IMG/VR virus record: IMGVR_UViG_3300044557_000107
Span: 64,001 to 128,000 of that record
Direction: 5' to 3' (one strand)
Origin: a virus
Taxonomy: Duplodnaviria > Caudoviricetes
Length of the DNA stretch: 64,000 bases
Shown here piece after piece: positions 10,572 to 59,244 of this stretch (position 1 is its first letter; each line of letters starts with the position of its first letter). A model generated the notes under the pieces. The model searched no databases, was not told the origin of the DNA, and saw only the letters and a program-made list of their open reading frames with translations. A program made the position numbers and the translations under genes.

Positions 10572-10668
10572 AATTCCACCACCTTTTCGTTAATAATATA
10601 GTTTTTTTTAATAATTTTACGTGTATTATAAATAGACCTGAAAGGATCTATTTTTGTGCTATAGAATG

Positions 10669-10696
10669 TTGACAATTTTGAATCCTATGCTATAAT
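10669..10696 (+). promoter_or_regulatory. sigmaA-type promoter for tnpB-1
   Basis: TTGACA-16 nt-TATAAT with extended TG. Confidence 0.7.
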
Positions 10697-10808
10697 ATAC
10701 TTATTACCAAGTTAGTTGAGAAAGCTTGGTATTTTAATGCCGAGATGAATCAACGTCTTGAGTGACCACCATTGTATTTTGTAATATAATTAGAAGAGGT
10801 GATAATTA

Positions 10809-11945
10809 ATGACTTTGAAAGGAATCAAACTAAGAATCTACCCTAATAGAGAACAACAATTAAAGATTAAACTTAACTTTGGATATAACAGATTTGTTTG
10901 GAATCAGATGTTAGACATGATGATTAAACGCTATGAAAATAATCCCGAAGCGCCTTTTCTGGGAGCCTATACCCTAGATAAACTATTACCAACCCTAAAA
11001 TGTGAATACCCATTCTTAAAAGATGCTGAATCTACCAGTCTTCAAAATACTAATCATGACTTGATTGAAGCTTATAAGAAATTCTTTAGAGAACACAAAG
11101 GATTTCCTAAGTTTAAATCACGTAAATTTCCTAAGCAGAGTTACCAATCAAAAATGGGAATTAGCAAGGCTTCAACAAATTATTTAAAGCTACCTAAGAT
11201 TGGTGTTGTTAAAGCCAAAGGACAAATACCAGACTGTAAAATTAATAGGGTTACTATCAGATTATCTGCCACAGGAAAATTCTATGTGGTTTTGTTAGTT
11301 GATACAGATATTAATAGTCTTCCTAAAACTAATAATGCCGTAGGCATTGACATGGGTGTAGCAGATCTGATGATTACTAGTGATGGTATTAAATATCCCA
11401 CGATTAGATTTGATAAACTCCTCAGTAAAAAGAAACATTATTGGGAGAAACGGTTAGCTAGACGTAGACTGCAAGCTAAGAAGGAAATAGCTTGGGATAA
11501 GCATAATAAAGTAGCAGAGCCACATGAATTAAGTGATTTCAAGAACTACCAAAAAGCTAAAACTATGGTTGCCAAGTATAATGAGAAAATAGCTAACCAG
11601 CGCAATGATTATCTTCATAAGTTAACTAAGTCTTTAGTAGAGCAGTATGATGTGATTAAGATTGAAGATTTGAAAGCCAAAAATCTTCTAAAGAATCACA
11701 AGCTCGCTAGAGCAATTGCTAACCAATCATGGAGAGAACTACGTACACAGTTAGAATATAAATGTGAATGGTATGGTAAACAACTAGTCATTGTTAACCC
11801 CAGAAAAACATCACAAATTTGCTCTAATTGTGGTTATGATGATGGTAAACACACATTGGATATTCGACAGTGGACATGTCCTATGTGTGGTACCCATCAT
11901 GATAGAGATATTAATGCTGCTAAGAACATCTTAGCTAGTGAATAA
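10809..11945 (+). CDS. tnpB: TnpB RNA-guided endonuclease (IS200/IS605 family), copy 1, no tnpA
   Basis: KLRIYP N-terminus; RuvC I GIDMG, RuvC II IEDL, Zn finger CSNC/CPMC, RuvC III DRDINAAKNI; all catalytic residues intact. Confidence 0.95.
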   Translation: MTLKGIKLRIYPNREQQLKIKLNFGYNRFVWNQMLDMMIKRYENNPEAPFLGAYTLDKLLPTLKCEYPFLKDAESTSLQNTNHDLIEAYKKFFREHKGFPKFKSRKFPKQSYQSKMGISKASTNYLKLPKIGVVKAKGQIPDCKINRVTIRLSATGKFYVVLLVDTDINSLPKTNNAVGIDMGVADLMITSDGIKYPTIRFDKLLSKKKHYWEKRLARRRLQAKKEIAWDKHNKVAEPHELSDFKNYQKAKTMVAKYNEKIANQRNDYLHKLTKSLVEQYDVIKIEDLKAKNLLKNHKLARAIANQSWRELRTQLEYKCEWYGKQLVIVNPRKTSQICSNCGYDDGKHTLDIRQWTCPMCGTHHDRDINAAKNILASE

Positions 11946-46020: not shown

Positions 46021-47208
46021 TTATTTAGTAATTTTAGTTGTATCTCCAGTTACCCAGTTAGTTCCTAAGTATTGAATATTCATAGCACCAATGCGGTCAT
46101 CATTAGACTTATAACCACAGTTGGCACACTGGTACTCATGAATATCATGTTTTCTGTTATTTTTATTGACAGATCCACATTTAGGACAACGCTGGCTGGT
46201 ATACTGAGCACTAACCTTAATAACTTTAGAACCATTAAGTTCTGCTTTATAGGTTAGAAATTGCTCAAACTGGTAGAAAGCCCAGCTAACCTGCTCGTAA
46301 CGATTTGTTTTAGCAACTTTCTCCGTAGCAAATCGAACATTGGTTAAGTCTTCTAATACAAAGAGAGTGTCTTTACCATATTTATCAGTGAGTGTCTTAG
46401 TTATTCGATGATTAATATCACTCATCCAGCGGTTTTCTCGCTGACCAATGGCTTTAAGTCTTCTTTTAGCAGACTTAGTACCCTTACTTTGTAATTGTTG
46501 TCTTAACTTCTTGTACTTTCTACGTTTTGCTGTAATAGCTTTACCATCTATAAAGGAAGTTTTACCTTTTTCATCATAAGTGGTTGCTAAAAAGCGTAGA
46601 CCTCTATCTATGCCAACTACATGTTTCAAGTCATCTTTTTCAAAGATACGAGGTTCTACAGTAGCAGAGATATGCAAGAAGTAATGTCCATATGATTTAA
46701 CAAGTTTAGCAGTGCCTAATTTACCATCTAAGTATTGTTCAAAGCCCTTCATAGAAAAACCCATAATTTCACGGTTACCTAAGGTATTAAGAGATAGCTT
46801 ACCATTCTTAAATGACCAGTCACGTATAGATACTAAATCACACTGAGGTCTTTTAAAGCTAATAGGCTTTTGTAACCATGATAGGTCACGCTGAGCGGTA
46901 TACCAAGTATCAGTGTTGTTATCTTTATAGTGGTATGGCTCTTGTTTAAGCTGTGTTTCTACAGTTCTATACCTAGCAATAACTGTTTTAAAGACAGATT
47001 GTGTCATTTGTGCCTTAAGACCAAACTTGTCCCTAACCTTATGATACAAATCTTTATTAATATCTTTTTGCTTAGGTATAAAGTTATGGTCAAAGTAGTA
47101 CTTAGATACTAAATTACAGGCATTCCTATACTGTTGCATAGTAGCTAGTAATAAGTTACCTTGTTCAGATGTAGGATATATTCTTGCTTTAATAGTTACA
47201 GTTGTCAT
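46021..47208 (-). CDS. tnpB: TnpB RNA-guided endonuclease, copy 2, no tnpA
   Basis: IKARIYP; GIDRG, LEDL, CPKC/CANC, NDDRIGAMNI; start ATG 47208 after RBS AGAGGTG (track gives 47232). Confidence 0.93.
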   Translation of the reverse strand: MTTVTIKARIYPTSEQGNLLLATMQQYRNACNLVSKYYFDHNFIPKQKDINKDLYHKVRDKFGLKAQMTQSVFKTVIARYRTVETQLKQEPYHYKDNNTDTWYTAQRDLSWLQKPISFKRPQCDLVSIRDWSFKNGKLSLNTLGNREIMGFSMKGFEQYLDGKLGTAKLVKSYGHYFLHISATVEPRIFEKDDLKHVVGIDRGLRFLATTYDEKGKTSFIDGKAITAKRRKYKKLRQQLQSKGTKSAKRRLKAIGQRENRWMSDINHRITKTLTDKYGKDTLFVLEDLTNVRFATEKVAKTNRYEQVSWAFYQFEQFLTYKAELNGSKVIKVSAQYTSQRCPKCGSVNKNNRKHDIHEYQCANCGYKSNDDRIGAMNIQYLGTNWVTGDTTKITK

Positions 47209-48605: not shown

Positions 48606-48935
48606 ATGATTAAAACAATTACACTAGAAGACGCTGATGAACTACGTTGCCAAGGTAGCACAGATAAATTTACATTTGTGGCAGAAGAGGCCGACCAATC
48701 TGATCGCTGGTCAGAACCAGTTACTGTATACATCAAAGAAAATAGCACTGGTAAAATTTATGGATTTGATTATAGTCGTGGACTAACTGAAATGCAGGAA
48801 AGCACGATTAGTACGGTTGAAGGATATGAAGATACTTTTTATGGATCAAATCAAGACCATCACGTGGAACTAACTCACTATGAAGAAACAACACGAGTTA
48901 TTCATACGTTTGTAGTAGCTACGGAGGAAGATTAA
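48606..48935 (+). CDS. Acidic hypothetical protein
   Basis: 109-aa ORF, RBS AGTAGGA. Confidence 0.65.
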   Translation: MIKTITLEDADELRCQGSTDKFTFVAEEADQSDRWSEPVTVYIKENSTGKIYGFDYSRGLTEMQESTISTVEGYEDTFYGSNQDHHVELTHYEETTRVIHTFVVATEED

Positions 48936-54943: not shown

Positions 54944-55396
54944 ATGAGTAATTACGTATTTTTAGTATCTACTAGCGTTGACGGGAGTAACCCGATGATA
55001 TTTACGGGGGACGCCCCACTAATTTCTTTAGCTCAGAGTATATCTGGAAGATGCACTCTATTTATTCAAAATGACGGAAGCTTTTCACCACATTACAATA
55101 CTCCCCAAGATAGACGAGATGAGATGTGTGAGGATGTACTACAACGAGGCGTATCTTTCAAAGTAGCTTGTAGACGTAAAAGTTCTGTGCCTGAGGAGTT
55201 TAAGTATGTTAAAATAATAAGGGTTTCCAGAGCTATCCAGCTCATTAACAGATTACCTTTAGATAGGCATCCCAACGAGAAAAAGTTAATATCCTATAGA
55301 ACTGCAAGCCGTTCTTTTGAGAATCGAATATACTTTCTTAGAAGTCAACGTGAAGGTCAGGCAGGAATACACAAGGGGAGGGAACTAAATAGTTGA
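54944..55396 (+). CDS. Hypothetical protein (paralog of 60292-60792)
   Basis: 150-aa ORF, RBS AAGGGGT. Confidence 0.6.
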   Translation: MSNYVFLVSTSVDGSNPMIFTGDAPLISLAQSISGRCTLFIQNDGSFSPHYNTPQDRRDEMCEDVLQRGVSFKVACRRKSSVPEEFKYVKIIRVSRAIQLINRLPLDRHPNEKKLISYRTASRSFENRIYFLRSQREGQAGIHKGRELNS

Positions 55397-56076
55397 TTTA
55401 TATAATTGGATCTATTGGAGCCGGTAAAAGTAGTCTAACAGAACTCCTTGCAAAGGATTTAAACGTACCTTATTACTTGGAGTCGGTAGATAATGGACTT
55501 ATCAAAGGAATGCTGAGAAAATTCTATTCCGCGGGAAAGGAGAGCCGCTCACAAGTCTCTGCTATGTTGCAGGTAGCTTTTCTAACAGTACGCTATCAGC
55601 AGTTAAAGCAGGCAATTGCAGAACCAAATGCAGTTTTAGATTCTAATTTGTTATCCGATCATATCTTAGCTAGGAACCTATATGACCGAGGTGAAATGGA
55701 TAAAGAAGCTTATAACGTGTACCTTACGTTAAACCAAGAAATGCAGTCAAATGTTAATGGGAGTCCTTGGAATGGTTTTCCAGATCTTATCGTGTATATT
55801 GATATAGATCCTGAGCACGAGATTGAGATGATACAAAGTCGCAGTCGGGACATGGAAGACATTCGTAAGGACGCAGGACTTATTGATTATTATCGGTCAG
55901 TTAACGACGCGTATACTCGGTGGTACAATGGTTTCACACAGGCTCCAGTAATACGCATAGACCGTGAAAAGTACGATTTTGTAAATAATAAAGATGATCA
56001 GAAGCAAGTGCTTATAGATATTAAGAACAAGCTGTATGAACTAGGAAAATTAGATAATAAGGAGATTTCAATTTAA
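55393..56076 (+). CDS. Deoxynucleoside kinase (dAK/dGK family)
   Basis: GSIGAGKSS, Q..FL..RYQQ, PDLIVYID, RSRDME. Confidence 0.9.
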   Translation: MIYIIGSIGAGKSSLTELLAKDLNVPYYLESVDNGLIKGMLRKFYSAGKESRSQVSAMLQVAFLTVRYQQLKQAIAEPNAVLDSNLLSDHILARNLYDRGEMDKEAYNVYLTLNQEMQSNVNGSPWNGFPDLIVYIDIDPEHEIEMIQSRSRDMEDIRKDAGLIDYYRSVNDAYTRWYNGFTQAPVIRIDREKYDFVNNKDDQKQVLIDIKNKLYELGKLDNKEISI

Positions 56077-56849
56077 TGGATAACACAAGTAAATTAGTAG
56101 ATAACACAGGAAAATTCACAGGGAATTACTTTCAATGGCTAAAGGTACAGCTAACTGGCTGGGATAGTCTTCCATGGGCGCTATTTGGTTTTGCCTTAGG
56201 TATGCAGGGAATGAGTTTTGCGTTAAACCCAAGTACATGGATTAGTGTAGTATCACTAATTGCGACGTTATTTGGTAGTCTATGCACTTGTGCTATGATG
56301 GCCGCGGGGAAAGATCCTATTACAGGAAAACGTGTAACCTCAAGAGCTATTAATGGAGCTTTAGGTGCAGTTTCCGTTATTGGGTTTGTAATTGTCAACG
56401 CTACTATGGGCCACTGGTGGAGCGTTCTTGATCAGCTAGTCTTCTTTGTACTGATTGACGTAGAACTCATGTTTACATGGCGCACATGGGGCCGTGGCAA
56501 GAATACTGAAATTAAGAAGCTATCTAATAAAGGATATGTCTATGCTACTGTAGCAATTCTTGTTGCTTGGCTAGTCTTGTACTTTGTGGGTATCCAACTA
56601 GGAGATCAGCAACCTATTTTTGACAGTCTCGTACTGGCTATGGGTGCCGTAGCGTCTTGGCTATGTTTCCGCCGGTATTCCTTAACTTACAAACTATGGC
56701 TACTTGCAGATGTCGCACAAATTGCTTTATTCGTAGCTACTATGATCCAATCAGGTGTGACTGGTGCTTCAATGGCTCTGGCATTAAACTATGCGTTCTA
56801 TTTGCTTACCAGTATTGGAGGCTTAGTAAACTGGAAGCCTACTAAATAA
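56076..56849 (+). CDS. Second Pnu-family transporter (possibly deoxynucleoside-specific)
   Basis: Multi-TM; FDSL..., YKLWLLAD; translationally coupled to the dNK gene. Confidence 0.75.
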   Translation: MDNTSKLVDNTGKFTGNYFQWLKVQLTGWDSLPWALFGFALGMQGMSFALNPSTWISVVSLIATLFGSLCTCAMMAAGKDPITGKRVTSRAINGALGAVSVIGFVIVNATMGHWWSVLDQLVFFVLIDVELMFTWRTWGRGKNTEIKKLSNKGYVYATVAILVAWLVLYFVGIQLGDQQPIFDSLVLAMGAVASWLCFRRYSLTYKLWLLADVAQIALFVATMIQSGVTGASMALALNYAFYLLTSIGGLVNWKPTK

Positions 56850-56854
56850 CACTA

Positions 56855-56930
56855 AAAGAAGTTACTCAAAATAAATTGGGTGACTTCTTTATTTTTGTGT
56901 TGACAACGAGTATCAGTGTGCTAGTATAAT
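56855..56930 (+). promoter_or_regulatory. Terminator + sigmaA promoter cassette driving the Cas12f-like gene
   Basis: AAAGAAGTTACTCAA...TTGGGTGACTTCTTT hairpin, then TTGACA (56900) and TG-C-TAGTAT/TATAAT; same layout as 47901-47980. Confidence 0.7.
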
Positions 56931-56958: not shown

Positions 56959-58347
56959 ATGAAAGAAAAGTTAAACAAGGGGATTAAGGTCAGAATATTT
57001 CCTAATGAAGAGCAAGTGGGACAAATTAGATTATCATTTATGTGGGCACGGAACTTTTATAACTATCTGGTTGAATACCAGAAAGACTACACCAAAGCTA
57101 TCTGGATTATGCGAGATCGAGAAGGTGGATATAGAAAAGATAAGAATGGTAAAGTTATACTATTTGACAAGAAGGGTAATGAAAGTAAAACTGGTAAACC
57201 TCAGTTTAAGTATAAGGGAAATGTATATCTAAGTAAGTTTGACTTGATGAAGTTAGCTTCACCTTATCGAAAGTTTCATAAAGATGCAGGTGCAAGTAAG
57301 GTGGACAGCCACGTTTATGAAATGACGGCCACTTCATTTTATCAAGCGATTCAAAATCAATATAATCCTAGAATGATTAATGCAAAAGCACCTAAGAAGC
57401 ATAAATGGGTTACTTCATATACTAGTAGATACACACAAGCGTCTAAGTTTTCATCAACAAAGAAAAGTGGTTCTGTTCCAAGCATGTATAGTGTAACAAA
57501 ACATTGGGTAAAGGTACCAAAGTTAGGCATGGTTAAATACTCTGGTTCACAATCATTGAAAAATATTAAGCCAAAGAACTTTACTATTACAGAGGATAAA
57601 ACAGGTAAATTCTACATGAGTATTATTATTGAATATCATAAGGATATTAAATCTGTTAAGCCTGTAAAAGTAGTTGGGATTGACTTAGGGTTAGATACTC
57701 TAGCTATTACTAGTGAGGGTAAAAAATATAAGATTATTCCTTTCACTAAGAATCATGAAAGAACCCTAGCAATTAAGAGCAGAAAAGCAAGTAAGAGAAG
57801 ATTATTCATGGAAACGGTTATTGGATCTTCTAAGAATAAGGCAAAGCTGTTTCCACTTACTCAACATGATTTTCCTAGTGTTAATGAAGCATACAGGGGA
57901 AGAGCTTTAGTATATAAGCACACTGCAAATCAACGAAATAACTATCTTCATGAAGTAAGTAGAAGCATTGTAGATTCTGCTGATGCAGTGGTTGTAGAAG
58001 ACATTACCGCTAGTTTCATGATGAAGGGTGGTAAAAGTAAGAAAACAGGTCGTAAGACTAAGAATAAGAGCGCCAAGAGTGCTAGTAATGCTAGTTGGAA
58101 CAAGCTATTAGTATATCTAGAATACAAGTGTAAGGAAGATGGAAAACAGTTTATTAAAGTAAGCAAAAACTATACTAGTCAGATTTGCCATGATTGTGGT
58201 TATTTATATGAAAACTTGGGTGTACCAAATGGTGGTGACAATCGTTCTGTTCGTGAATGGGACTGCCCTAAATGTGGGAAACATCATGATCGTGACATTA
58301 ATGCGGCTATCAATATTAAAAATAGAGGGTTAGAAGTTATTGATTAA
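56959..58347 (+). CDS. CRISPR-adjacent TnpB-derived RuvC nuclease (Cas12f/TranC-like), 462 aa
   Basis: KVRIFP; GIDLG, VEDI, CHDC/CPKC, DRDINAAINI intact; longer than the other two TnpBs; followed by leader and array. Confidence 0.85.
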   Translation: MKEKLNKGIKVRIFPNEEQVGQIRLSFMWARNFYNYLVEYQKDYTKAIWIMRDREGGYRKDKNGKVILFDKKGNESKTGKPQFKYKGNVYLSKFDLMKLASPYRKFHKDAGASKVDSHVYEMTATSFYQAIQNQYNPRMINAKAPKKHKWVTSYTSRYTQASKFSSTKKSGSVPSMYSVTKHWVKVPKLGMVKYSGSQSLKNIKPKNFTITEDKTGKFYMSIIIEYHKDIKSVKPVKVVGIDLGLDTLAITSEGKKYKIIPFTKNHERTLAIKSRKASKRRLFMETVIGSSKNKAKLFPLTQHDFPSVNEAYRGRALVYKHTANQRNNYLHEVSRSIVDSADAVVVEDITASFMMKGGKSKKTGRKTKNKSAKSASNASWNKLLVYLEYKCKEDGKQFIKVSKNYTSQICHDCGYLYENLGVPNGGDNRSVREWDCPKCGKHHDRDINAAINIKNRGLEVID

Positions 58348-58362
58348 TTTTAAAAATAAGTA

Positions 58363-58391
58363 TTGACATAAGGATTATTAAGAGGTATTAT
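58363..58391 (+). promoter_or_regulatory. sigmaA promoter for tracr/leader and array
   Basis: TTGACA-17-TATTAT 15 nt after the nuclease stop codon. Confidence 0.75.
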
Positions 58392-58397
58392 AATAGA

Positions 58398-58650
58398 TGT
58401 AAGTAAGTCATAAGGTTAATCAAGCCTACTAAGAAGTGCAAGTCTTCTAATGACTATATGGGGTTTCTCAATCCTTGGTTAACTACGGGTTCCGTGAGCT
58501 ATAGATGTTTTATAGACACTACTCAGCATACCCTAAAAACATGATAGGTGTTAATCAAAGCTCAATTTATTGAGTGGGTAATAGCCTATTGAGACCTAGA
58601 CATTTTAATAGTATAAGTATACTAAATAGGGTTTATTAGTCTTAATAACT
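58398..58650 (+). ncRNA. Putative tracrRNA / scaffold-leader
   Basis: ~250 nt non-coding with several hairpins; TTCTCA (58465-70) and CATACCCTA (58527-35) are complementary to the repeat 3' end TAGGTATGAGA. Confidence 0.55.
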
Positions 58651-58885
58651 CCCTAGTATGTACTCAAAATGTACTAGGTATGAGATAATTGTAACATAAA
58701 TTTAATTTACTACTTACCCTAGTATGTACTCAAAATGTACTAGGTATGAGATGGGCGGTTCACTGGTGTTTATGTACAGTGACTCTAGTATGTACTTAAA
58801 ATGTTACTAGGTACAAGACATTATGTTTGATACGTATTTTAAGGCGTTCCCCTCGTATATATCCAAAATGTGCTAGGCATGAGGT
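58651..58885 (+). CRISPR. Mini CRISPR array: 4 repeats (36/36/37/36 nt), 3 spacers of 30 nt
   Basis: CCCTAGTATGTACTCAAAATGTACTAGGTATGAGAT exact at 58651 and 58717, degenerate at 58783 and 58850; hairpin CCTAGTA/TACTAGG; spacers unique. Confidence 0.88.
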
Positions 58886-58920: not shown

Positions 58921-59244
58921 ATGGCAATTAGACCAGAATACTATAAAGGCAAATCAGGACATGATATTTTCTGGGATATGGAAAATGGTAAGTACCCTGT
59001 GGAATGGGCAATCGGGTTCTGTGAGATCAACGCGGATAAATATGAAAGACGCCTGGGTAAGAAAACTAAGGATACTACGCTAGACGAGGCTAAGGCCCAG
59101 ACTTACCGTGAAGAAGCTAGAAAACTCCGCGAAATTTTTGCAGACGTGCGTAACCGAGGTGTTATTGGTAGAATGTTGCATACGATAAAGATAACACTAG
59201 GGAAATTATTGGGAACACCTCGAAGAACACGAAGAAACAAGTAA
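58921..59244 (+). CDS. DUF3310-like hypothetical protein
   Basis: RPEYY...GFCEINADKYERRLGKK...DEAKAQTY. Confidence 0.65.
   Translation: MAIRPEYYKGKSGHDIFWDMENGKYPVEWAIGFCEINADKYERRLGKKTKDTTLDEAKAQTYREEARKLREIFADVRNRGVIGRMLHTIKITLGKLLGTPRRTRRNK

What the first reader, a model, noticed from the sequence alone, without database searches (positions are those of the whole stretch)
56959..58885. Candidate phage-encoded miniature CRISPR system: TnpB-derived nuclease + tracr-like leader + 36/30 array
Seen: a 462-aa RuvC protein with intact D/E/D is followed 15 nt later by a TTGACA-17-TATTAT promoter, ~250 nt of structured non-coding sequence, and four repeats at 58651, 58717, 58783 and 58850. The first two are identical 36-mers with a CCTAGTA/TACTAGG hairpin. 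Spacers are exactly 30 nt and unrelated: AATTGTAACATAAATTTAATTTACTACTTA, GGGCGGTTCACTGGTGTTTATGTACAGTGA, ATTATGTTTGATACGTATTTTAAGGCGTTC. Repeats decay away from the leader, as in polarised arrays. No tnpA, cas1 or cas2 occurs in the window, and I see no IS-type right end here. Established: Cas12 effectors arose repeatedly from TnpB, and Cas12f-type effectors use a tracrRNA plus crRNA. Inference: this is an independent TnpB-to-Cas12 transition inside a lytic LAB myophage, used against competing phages, plasmids or host loci.
Basis: partly seen in the sequence, partly recalled or inferred. Interest (0 to 1): 0.95.

Follow-up and report, generated by a model that had tools for sequence, protein, structure and literature searches.

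The report
Phage TnpB nuclease with guide array
A large phage of lactic acid bacteria carries a small transposon-derived RNA-guided DNA cutter that has gained its own scaffold RNA and a short CRISPR-like array; the spacers differ between related phages, and two of them trace to plasmids of lactobacilli, so it looks like an early-stage CRISPR-type weapon carried by a virus.

Summary
The finding holds a 462-aa TnpB-family nuclease with intact RuvC and zinc-finger residues. It has its own strong promoter 15 nt after the stop, then a ~215-nt structured RNA, then four 36-37-nt repeats with three unrelated 30-nt spacers.

- **Selection:** the nuclease is under strong purifying selection (dN/dS 0.03-0.07). 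The scaffold RNA is far better conserved than synonymous sites, and 14 of its base pairs show compensatory changes.
- **Spacer turnover:** about ten related metagenomic contigs carry the same module with different spacer sets, including one 93%-identical phage at the same locus.
- **Origin of the repeat:** each repeat is a copy of the scaffold's terminal hairpin plus tail. Fused (omegaRNA-like) and split forms both occur.
- **Sister clade:** a 40%-identical relative in Limosilactobacillus mucosae pLM1 sits at the same pnuC/dNK locus and has two arrays with the same 66-nt period.
- **Targets:** two spacer families match Lactobacillaceae plasmid backbones, one in a partition-type gene (27/30) and one in a conserved non-coding stretch (35/38). 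No spacer matched a phage.
- **Missing parts:** the complete phage genome has no Cas1 and no Y1 TnpA, and the scaffold has no anti-repeat.

This is best filed as a new member of the known TnpB-to-Cas12 / TranC kind, not a new category. How spacers are acquired is unknown. First-stage notes of this scan had already flagged this same stretch.

The parts
56855..56890 (+). Terminator-like hairpin after the PnuC gene. The left limit of the shared module lies here, at about 56853-56887.
   Evidence: 15-bp stem plus T run. Homology of the window to L003 and L009 starts at 56853 and 56887.
56900..56927 (+). Promoter-like site for the nuclease gene (TTGACA, 16 nt, TG-TAGTAT).
   Evidence: 10 of 12 matches with an extended -10. 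Conserved in L003, L009 and L011.
56959..58347 (+). 462-aa TnpB-family RNA-guided nuclease with intact RuvC D242/E347/D446 and a CxxC..CxxC zinc finger. Clade-specific insertions lie at residues 45-76, 85-89, 158-174, 357-367 and 416-422.
   Evidence: AF2 model pLDDT 79.5. Best folds are ISFba1 and ISDra2 TnpB. dN/dS 0.03-0.07.
58363..58391 (+). Promoter of the scaffold/array transcript (TTGACA-17-TATTAT).
   Evidence: 11 of 12 matches, the best in the region. Conserved in L003, L009, L011 and L012.
58396..58604 (+). Closed core of the scaffold RNA (~210 nt): ten helices, closed by a 5' GAUGU / ACAUU pairing. The hairpin loop UCUC(A) at 58466-58470 is complementary to the repeat tail (U)GAGA.
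   Evidence: RNAalifold gives 73 pairs, 14 with compensatory change. In controls, 0 of 500 shuffles reach this and slid registers give at most 1. Core identity is 0.79-0.93 where synonymous sites differ by 0.47-0.73.
58609..58624 (+). Terminal hairpin of the scaffold (UAGUAUA-AG-UAUACUA), homologous to the hairpin inside every repeat.
   Evidence: helix 11. In L003 and L011 it runs straight into the repeat tail ...GAGAC plus a 30-nt guide.
58625..58650 (+). Degenerate 26-nt linker or leader ending in AATAACT, directly before repeat 1.
   Evidence: The end AATAACT is kept in L009 and in the 73% clade (L012, L014), while the rest has diverged.
58651..58686 (+). Repeat 1 (36 nt): a 10-bp hairpin plus the tail GGUAUGAGAU.
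   Evidence: The repeat folds on its own at -10.3 kcal/mol.
58687..58716 (+). Spacer 1 (30 nt, AT-rich), unique to this phage. No convincing target found.
58717..58752 (+). Repeat 2, identical to repeat 1.
58753..58782 (+). Spacer 2. It is homologous to a spacer of L011 (24/30), which matches a conserved non-coding stretch of Pediococcus pentosaceus plasmid pKPP02 (35/38 plus a 2-nt indel). The window copy has drifted to 18/20 over the first 20 nt.
58783..58819 (+). Repeat 3 (37 nt, one inserted base, decayed).
58820..58849 (+). Spacer 3, identical in L011. It matches 27/30, in frame, the 3' end of a 118-aa 'replication-associated' gene next to a ParA-like ATPase in Paucilactobacillus wasatchensis. 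Its plasmid homologues are annotated DUF5388.
58850..58885 (+). Repeat 4 (terminal, 81% identical to repeat 1), followed by AT-rich flank and the next gene at 58921.

Best explanation
This is a domesticated TnpB-derived guide-array system, of the transposon-CRISPR-intermediate or minimal type V kind, carried by a ~140-kb phage with direct terminal repeats. Its nearest relatives in the phage database are phages of Lactobacillaceae.

Shown:
- The nuclease is catalytically intact and under purifying selection.
- A separate promoter drives a ~215-nt conserved, covarying scaffold RNA that shares an omegaRNA core with ordinary phage TnpB elements.
- The scaffold is followed by 36-nt repeats, each a copy of its terminal hairpin plus tail, separated by 30-nt spacers that turn over between close relatives.

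Inferred:
- The transcript yields hairpin-tail-guide units. Each unit takes the place of the scaffold's own last hairpin on the nuclease, probably held by a short pseudoknot (loop UCUC with tail GAGA) and by the protein rather than by an anti-repeat duplex.
- The loaded nuclease then cuts DNA that matches the spacer next to a short 5' motif.
- Because two spacer families trace to backbone modules of Lactobacillaceae plasmids, the likely use is destruction of resident plasmids or plasmid-like rivals during infection.
- New spacers are probably written in trans, since the phage has no integrase of its own. The 36+30 geometry equals that of type II-A arrays of lactobacilli.
For: - **Family and catalytic residues:**
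- **Fold:**
- **Selection on the protein:**
- **Scaffold structure with covariation and controls:**. Scaffold conservation against synonymous divergence.
- **Shared core with ordinary omegaRNAs** (GAGTTCTGTAAGTTA ... CCTAAA ... terminal hairpin ... tail | guide).
- **Repeat equals terminal hairpin plus tail; fused forms in L003 and L011, split forms in the window, L009 and L012:**
- **Spacer turnover:** the window has S1, S2, S3. L011 (93% identical over 4.2 kb, same flanks) has a new first spacer, then S3, S2' and a further one. L003, L012/L015 and L005/L013 each carry other spacers.
- **Sister clade:** pLM1 at the same pnuC/dNK locus has two five-repeat arrays of period 66. Ordinary relatives have none.
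- **Plasmid protospacers:**
- **No Cas1 or Y1 TnpA in the phage:**
- **Host-type geometry:** P. wasatchensis has a II-A array with a 36-nt repeat and 29-31-nt spacers.
Against: - No RNA or activity data exist, so processing and trans-loading of repeat units are untested.
- No anti-repeat was found: the scaffold-repeat duplex is no better than with shuffled repeats.
- The UCUC/GAGA pairing is only 4-5 bp and has no clean covariation.
- Protospacer matches are imperfect (27/30; 35/38 with an indel; search-wide E about 0.01 and 0.001). Nine other spacers or guide-like flanks have no convincing match.
- The window's own copy of S2 has drifted at roughly the neutral rate, so not every spacer is maintained.
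- No TAM/PAM could be derived.
- The phage repeat does not resemble the one II-A repeat examined, and that host's CRISPR spacers do not hit this phage. Both the host and the writer of spacers remain open.
- Logan contigs break at repeats, so some array lengths are minimum values and the 'no spacer' contig L014 may be an assembly collapse.
Confidence: 0.72

Rival explanations
1. Homing or retention device. As in ordinary TnpB elements, the guides direct cleavage of related phage genomes that lack the module, at sites matching the guides. Recombinational repair during co-infection then copies the module in, and the internal spacers record former insertion sites.
For: - The module sits in at least three different contexts (window/L011, L003, L009).
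- In L003 the last repeat is followed directly by the 3' end of an open reading frame, as a flank-guide would be.
- The phage holds six other TnpB-like loci.
Against: - No spacer matches the phage itself, any related locus, INPHARED or IMG/VR.
- Two spacers trace to plasmids instead.
- A strict 30-nt spacer length is not expected from captured flanks.
- The sister clade occupies the same syntenic site, which argues for a resident rather than a hopping element.
Confidence: 0.1
2. Decaying transposon debris: an immobilised IS200/IS605-type tnpB whose right end was tandemly duplicated. The repeats and spacers would have no function.
For: - Repeats 3 and 4 are degenerate.
- Spacer 2 has drifted at about the neutral rate relative to L011.
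- Tandem omegaRNAs occur in an ordinary relative, L030.
Against: - Spacers are unrelated sequences of exactly 30 nt, not diverged duplicates.
- Spacer content changes between 93%-identical phages while the scaffold is conserved well above synonymous sites.
- The same design persists in a 40%-identical sister clade.
- The scaffold-array module is kept whether it lies upstream or downstream of the gene (L012, pLM1).
Confidence: 0.08
3. Array serving host machinery. The repeats would be decoys or substrates for a host CRISPR-Cas system, either as a virus-borne mini-array that borrows host Cas proteins or as an RNA anti-CRISPR, and would be unrelated to the adjacent nuclease.
For: The 36+30 geometry equals that of type II-A arrays of lactobacilli.
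Against: - The repeat is homologous to the terminal hairpin of the scaffold next to it, not to the II-A or I-E repeats of the one candidate host examined.
- Rfam finds no CRISPR direct-repeat family here.
- The repeat sequence changes together with the nuclease clade: window clade, 73% clade and pLM1.
Confidence: 0.04

Closest known systems
TranC (transposon-CRISPR intermediates; LaTranC structures 9jfo/9jfq; a phage-borne CauTranC9 is described in bioRxiv 10.64898/2026.03.27.714800)
   Same: - TnpB-sized effector with small insertions, beside a short array of 32-38-nt repeats.
- No cas1 or cas2.
- Guide RNA derived from the transposon right-end RNA.
- Fused (reRNA-like) and array-borne guides both occur in this clade.
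- One published member is also encoded by a Caudoviricetes genome.
   Different: - Only distant in sequence (LaTranC E 1e-12 against ISDra2 TnpB 5e-26; 15-16% identity in the fold alignment).
- No anti-repeat:repeat duplex is detectable; the repeat is a self-folding copy of the scaffold's last hairpin.
Ordinary IS200/IS605 TnpB with omegaRNA (ISDra2 8h1j, ISFba1 8iaz; NCBIfam NF040570)
   Same: - Best sequence and fold matches.
- Same RuvC and zinc-finger residues.
- The scaffold shares a core with the omegaRNAs of the nearest phage TnpBs.
- In L003 and L011 the scaffold is still fused to a guide.
   Different: - About 75 extra residues.
- The scaffold is enlarged to ~215 nt and has its own promoter after the stop codon.
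- Several exchangeable 30-nt guides instead of one flank-derived guide.
- No TnpA, and this clade occurs as a single copy in the genome.
Cas12f / type V-U arrays without adaptation genes (Altae-Tran et al. 2023, PMC10691335)
   Same: - Miniature RuvC effector with a downstream short array and no cas1/cas2.
- Proposed origin of the array by duplication of omegaRNA segments.
   Different: - Scores far below the Cas12f2 and C2c8 model cut-offs (82 against 450 bits; 70 against 350 bits).
- No tracrRNA anti-repeat.
- The array can also lie upstream of the gene (L012, pLM1).
Other phage-encoded type V systems named in papers read or listed here (Cas12p 'hacker', bioRxiv 10.1101/2025.01.20.633832; Cas12r of Thermus phages, from its abstract)
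   Same: A phage-borne RNA-guided RuvC nuclease with a CRISPR array.
   Different: Cas12p effectors are larger (500-700 aa) and use a tracrRNA with a repeat:anti-repeat duplex. This one is 462 aa and barely removed from TnpB.

Membership tests
TnpB (RNA-guided endonuclease, NCBIfam NF040570 / Pfam OrfB_IS605 + Cas12f1-like_TNB) | Full-length match above the curated cut-off | tested here: met
   224 bits against a cut-off of 100, model positions 1-389. Pfam domains all above their cut-offs.
TnpB | RuvC D/E/D triad and CxxC..CxxC zinc finger | tested here: met
   D242, E347, D444/D446, C410, C413, C436 and C439 are invariant in A3.
TnpB as part of an IS200/IS605 element | Partner TnpA, several copies, and a single guide equal to the DNA flanking the right end | tested here: not met
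   No Y1 transposase in the complete genome (... for PF01797). The scaffold and repeat are single-copy in the genome. There are three internal guides unrelated to the flank.
Type V CRISPR-Cas (Cas12) | RuvC effector next to an array of direct repeats with variable spacers | tested here: met
   Spacer sets differ among about ten related loci.
Type V CRISPR-Cas (Cas12) | Match to a defined Cas12 subtype model | tested here: not met
   Cas12f2 82 bits (cut-off 450) and C2c8 70 bits (cut-off 350).
tracrRNA-dependent type V (V-F and others) | Anti-repeat in the non-coding RNA that pairs with the repeat | tested here: not met
   RNAduplex of scaffold against repeat in four loci is no better than with shuffled repeats.
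Type V CRISPR-Cas | Adaptation genes cas1/cas2 (absent from several accepted subtypes) | tested here: not met
   No Cas1 in the whole phage genome. Cas2 was not searched.
TranC | TnpB-like effector with an array whose repeat derives from the right-end RNA | tested here: met
   The repeat is homologous to the scaffold's terminal hairpin plus tail. The scaffold shares a core with omegaRNAs of ordinary relatives.
TranC | Placement in one of the published clades; cleavage guided by both reRNA and crRNA | not testable with these tools
   Only LaTranC is available, through the PDB (E 1e-12). There are no activity data.
Virus-borne mini-arrays that use host Cas proteins | Repeat identical or near-identical to a host CRISPR repeat | tested here: inconclusive
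   Not similar to the II-A or I-E repeats of P. wasatchensis, and no Rfam CRISPR-DR match. The true host is unknown.

The most novel reading that the evidence does not exclude
This locus and its relatives may be a living series of the omegaRNA-to-CRISPR transition. The crRNA would be a self-folding copy of the omegaRNA's last hairpin that docks on a separate scaffold without any anti-repeat. Spacers of exactly 30 nt would be written into a phage genome that has no integrase, either by the host's type II-A Cas1-Cas2-Csn2 acting on a foreign repeat or by a mechanism not yet described. The phage would use it to destroy host plasmids.
Probability: 0.25. Interest if true: 0.9.

Novelty: new member of a known kind. 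Interest (0 to 1): 0.68.

Why it matters
How CRISPR arrays and split guide RNAs arose from the single omegaRNA of TnpB is an active question. Here, closely related natural loci show the steps side by side:
- a scaffold fused to a guide;
- a scaffold separated from an array by a decayed linker;
- the array upstream or downstream of the gene;
- one nuclease with two arrays.

The repeat is visibly the duplicated last hairpin of the scaffold. The system is small (462 aa), catalytically intact and selected. It also offers a concrete biological reading, a phage attacking Lactobacillaceae plasmid backbones, which can be tested in laboratory strains. Finally, it poses a sharp problem: exact 30-nt spacers turn over in a genome that encodes no Cas1.

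Tried and rejected
- **Rfam** on the region: no family.
- **Near or distant DNA matches** of the locus in INPHARED: none.
- **IMG/VR pattern scans:** the conserved scaffold word found nothing, and the repeat core found only two chance hits inside coding genes.
- **Degenerate-codon scans** of S2 and S3 in IMG/VR: none.
- **All 11 spacers or guide-like flanks plus the linker piece** against the phage genome and the loci fetched up to then: only chance words.
- **Spacers against INPHARED:** nothing credible.
- **GTDB species genomes:** no close relative of the protein.
- **Enterococcus raffinosus lead:** S2's first 22 nt are identical to an E. raffinosus megaplasmid gene for an EF-G-binding protein, the only species of 185,579 with this word. 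I reject this as the source for three reasons: the last 8 nt are unrelated, no other spacer hits that genome, and the homologous L011 spacer matches a Pediococcus plasmid over 38 nt.
- **Third-codon reading of S2 vs S2':** I first read the six S2/S2' differences as third-codon variation. The count fits neutral drift (pS 0.124) and the target is non-coding, so I dropped it.
- **L005 spacer:** a 27-nt match spans the repeat-spacer border and is judged chance.
- **P. wasatchensis CRISPR spacers** do not target this phage, so host assignment failed.
- **L003, L012 and L005 spacers** in 251 Lactobacillaceae genomes each: nothing.
The DNA of the closer protospacer alleles (P0132, P0138, P0139) and of the nearest relatives' Logan contigs could not be fetched.
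- **No covariance model** was built, because the scaffold is too long for the calibration limit; nhmmer was used instead.
Full report
**1. Observation**

The window is bases 64001-128000 of a 139,820-bp IMG/VR virus record with direct terminal repeats, rated complete. GC content is 36%.

The ORF 56959-58347(+) encodes 462 aa.
- It matches Pfam HTH_OrfB_IS605, OrfB_IS605 and Cas12f1-like_TNB.
- It matches NCBIfam guided_TnpB over the model's full length at 224 bits, against a cut-off of 100.
- The Cas12f2 and C2c8 models score far below their cut-offs.

Fifteen bases after the stop lies TTGACA-17-TATTAT (58363-58391), the best promoter-like site of the region. A second promoter-like site (56900-56927) precedes the gene, and a terminator-like hairpin (56855-56890) closes the upstream PnuC gene.

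Four repeats lie at 58651, 58717, 58783 and 58850. The first two are identical; the later ones have decayed. They are separated by three 30-nt spacers that match nothing else in the phage.

**2. The protein**

- In an alignment with 38 relatives, D242, E347, D444/D446 and the four zinc-finger cysteines are invariant.
- Against ordinary ~385-aa relatives the clade has about 75 extra residues, mainly at 45-76 and 85-89 and at 158-174. A lysine-rich 357-367 follows RuvC-II, and 416-422 lies in the zinc finger.
- The AlphaFold model (pLDDT 79.5) is closest to ISFba1 and ISDra2 TnpB, then to LaTranC, Cas12p and Cas12f. Sequence search of the PDB gives the same order.
- Within the clade dN/dS is 0.03-0.07, so the nuclease is maintained.
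- The phage has six further TnpB-like matches whose omegaRNAs are short and different.
- It has no Y1 TnpA and no Cas1.

**3. Relatives**

- In 5.8 billion clustered proteins only two clusters are close: 92-98% identity at 462 aa, and 73-74% at 453-454 aa. All other hits are at or below 40%.
- An exhaustive HMMER pass over 1.84 billion representatives puts the whole clade in one 50% cluster. The next best protein is P0141, 434 aa, 40% identical.
- The contigs that encode the close relatives all carry the same promoter and scaffold.

**4. The RNA**

Five distinct scaffolds align with 84% column identity.
- RNAalifold predicts 73 pairs, 14 of them with compensatory changes.
- On that structure 97.8% of cells pair. 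None of 500 shuffles reaches 14 double changes, and registers slid by 1-3 columns give at most 1.
- Core identity is 0.905 between the window and L003, where synonymous sites of the adjacent gene differ at 0.47. It is 0.79 between the window and L012, where they differ at 0.73. The RNA is therefore under selection.
- The core is closed by a 5'/3' helix and followed by a terminal hairpin (58609-58624).
- The nearest ordinary TnpBs in large phages (L027-L035) have ~150-nt omegaRNAs. These share the core words GAGTTCTGTAAGTTA and CCTAAA and the layout 'terminal hairpin - tail - guide'. The scaffold is thus an enlarged omegaRNA.
- Some of those ordinary relatives also have a promoter after the stop codon (L028, L029).

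**5. Origin and state of the array**

Each repeat is a few bases plus a 10-bp hairpin with the same arms as the scaffold's terminal hairpin, followed by a tail GGUAUGAGAU/C.
- **Fused forms.** In L003 and L011 the scaffold's last hairpin runs directly into that tail and a 30-nt guide, as in an omegaRNA, and further repeat-spacer units follow.
- **Split forms.** In the window, L009 and L012 the tail has decayed into a 26-28-nt linker ending in AATAACT, and the array starts after it.
- The two fusions join at different points, which suggests recurrent recombination between the hairpin and the repeats.
- The scaffold holds no anti-repeat: its best duplex with the repeat is no better than with shuffled repeats in four loci.
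- The only complementarity I see is a hairpin loop UCUC(A) (58466-58470) against the repeat tail (U)GAGA. It is 4-5 bp, kept or wobble-compatible in all loci, and has no clean covariation. An ordinary omegaRNA of this phage has an analogous GUCAA/UUGAC pair.
- A preprint on Cas12p states that type V tracrRNAs characteristically form a pseudoknot with the 3' end of the repeat.

**6. Spacer turnover**

- L011 is 93% identical to the window over 4.2 kb and has the same flanking genes. Its array reads: new spacer, S3 (30/30 identical), S2' (24/30, plus 10 extra bases), then another new spacer.
- The leader-proximal spacers are the ones unique to each phage, and repeats 1 and 2 of the window are identical. 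That pattern is what polarised addition would give. The swapped order of S2 and S3 shows that rearrangement also occurs.
- L003 has two other spacers. In the 73% clade, L012/L015 carry one spacer and L005/L013 another.
- L014 shows none, but it may be an assembly collapse, because Logan contigs break at repeats.
- S2 versus S2' (6 of 30 differences) fits neutral drift at pS 0.124. S3 (0 of 30) is better kept than expected.

**7. Position and mobility**

- Homology between the window and L003 or L009 is limited to 56853/56887 through the array. The promoter-gene-promoter-scaffold-array module therefore sits in at least three contexts.
- In L012 the scaffold and array lie upstream of the gene, right after PnuC, and a truncated scaffold lies downstream.

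**8. Sister clade**

L097 is Limosilactobacillus mucosae LM1 'plasmid' pLM1, a 108-kb circular record. IMG/VR classes it as viral and 89% complete.
- It encodes a P0141-like TnpB, annotated by PGAP as an RNA-guided endonuclease TnpB family protein.
- The gene is flanked on both sides by an omegaRNA-like scaffold plus five 36-nt repeats with 30-nt unrelated spacers, period 66.
- The repeat sequences differ from ours, but again they resemble the scaffold's last hairpin and tail.
- The gene lies between pnuC and a deoxynucleoside kinase gene, the same neighbourhood as in the window.
- Tandem-repeat scans of the roughly 90 ordinary relatives' loci found no such arrays.
- The array-bearing state is therefore older than the window's clade, or it arose twice at the same locus.

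**9. Targets**

Nothing credible was found in phage collections.

*Spacer S3.* Among 401 Lactobacillales genomes, S3 matches 27 of 30 bases, with 3 transitions. The match is confined to the spacer and is in frame (IMFDTYFKAF against IMFDMYLKAF). It lies at the 3' end of a 118-aa gene directly after a ParA-like ATPase.
- The protein is WP_044010394.1 of Paucilactobacillus wasatchensis, named 'replication-associated protein'.
- Three members of its 90% cluster read IMFDMYFKAF, one residue from the spacer.
- Homologues on Lactobacillaceae and Enterococcus plasmids are annotated DUF5388 next to an AAA ATPase.
- E is 3.6e-5 per genome, about 0.014 for the whole search.

*Spacer S2'.* Together with its 10 extra bases, S2' matches Pediococcus pentosaceus plasmid pKPP02 at 35 of 38 bases with a 2-nt indel (E 1e-3).
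- The match lies in an unannotated stretch conserved in eight Lactobacillaceae plasmids, five of them mobilizable.

*Rejected lead.* The window's S2 also shares a 22-mer with an Enterococcus raffinosus megaplasmid gene. I regard this as coincidence.

*The rest.* The other spacers have no convincing match. No TAM could be derived from two imperfect sites.

**10. Acquisition**

Spacers of exactly 30 nt and unrelated sequence require a ruler, and the phage has no Cas1. P. wasatchensis carries a II-A array with 36-nt repeats and 29-31-nt spacers, the same period of 66. However, its repeat is unlike the phage repeat, and its spacers do not hit this phage. Trans-adaptation by host II-A proteins is thus a hypothesis suggested by geometry only.

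**11. What is known**

- Cas12 arose from TnpB many times. Forty V-U groups, mostly arrays without cas genes and downstream of the effector, were catalogued, and origin by duplication of omegaRNA segments was proposed (PMC10691335).
- TranC systems are described as intermediates created by splitting the right-end RNA. Their repeats are 32-38 nt, with 3-20 per array and no adaptation genes, and one member is encoded by a Caudoviricetes genome (bioRxiv 10.64898/2026.03.27.714800).
- Phage-borne Cas12p is described in a preprint I read, and Cas12r appears in a search listing.
- This locus fits that kind. What it adds:
  - a very TnpB-like member with fused and split forms in near-identical phages;
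  - a repeat that is a self-folding hairpin with no anti-repeat;
  - arrays on either or both sides of the gene;
  - plasmid-derived spacers.
- I could not test whether it belongs to a published TranC clade.

**12. Verdict**

The feature is real, selected and dynamic. It is a new member of the TnpB-to-Cas12/TranC kind, probably used by the phage against plasmids. How guide units are loaded and how spacers are acquired are both unresolved.

Noticed in passing
whole genome G000 (window 10824-11936 +, 46072-47193 -; outside the window G000 10620-11669 -, 128932-130056 +, 131283-132500 +, 48733-48885 -): The phage carries six further TnpB-like matches besides the one studied. Three belong to one family with short omegaRNAs ending in GTAGTTCA. 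One has an internal TAG, one is weak (52 bits), and one is a 50-aa fragment.
   Followed up: partly
L126 (NZ_CP011014.1 70000-95000): pLM1 of Limosilactobacillus mucosae LM1 is filed as a 108-kb circular plasmid. It shares gene content with this phage's replication and nucleotide-metabolism arm (pnuC, deoxynucleoside kinase, DnaB-like helicase, metallophosphoesterase, nucleoside deoxyribosyltransferase), and IMG/VR calls it viral. It is probably a phage or a phage-plasmid.
   Followed up: partly
L030 2655-2990: An ordinary relative has two complete omegaRNAs in tandem after one tnpB gene. This is a possible first step towards an array of whole scaffolds.
   Followed up: no
L028 and L029, ~2660-2900: In these relatives the omegaRNA has its own TTGACA...TAAT promoter after the stop codon, and its guide runs into what looks like a tRNA gene.
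   Followed up: no
L017 1501-1525 / L018 6883-6904: A 25-nt exact identity links the window (58750-58774: end of repeat 2 plus the first 22 nt of spacer 2) to an EF-G-binding-protein gene on the Enterococcus raffinosus megaplasmid. This is the only species of 185,579 with that 22-mer. The 5' flank there reads TTGAT. Judged coincidental but not excluded.
   Followed up: yes
window 55393-56849: A deoxynucleoside kinase gene and a PnuC-type nicotinamide riboside/NMN transporter gene lie directly upstream. The same pair flanks the sister system in pLM1, and PnuC precedes the module in L011 and L012.
   Followed up: partly
L095 6790-6921: The type II-A array of Paucilactobacillus wasatchensis contains two adjacent identical spacers.
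   Followed up: no
L012 4512-5840: The related phage contig encodes a 442-aa RRXRR plus HNH protein a few genes upstream of the module.
   Followed up: no
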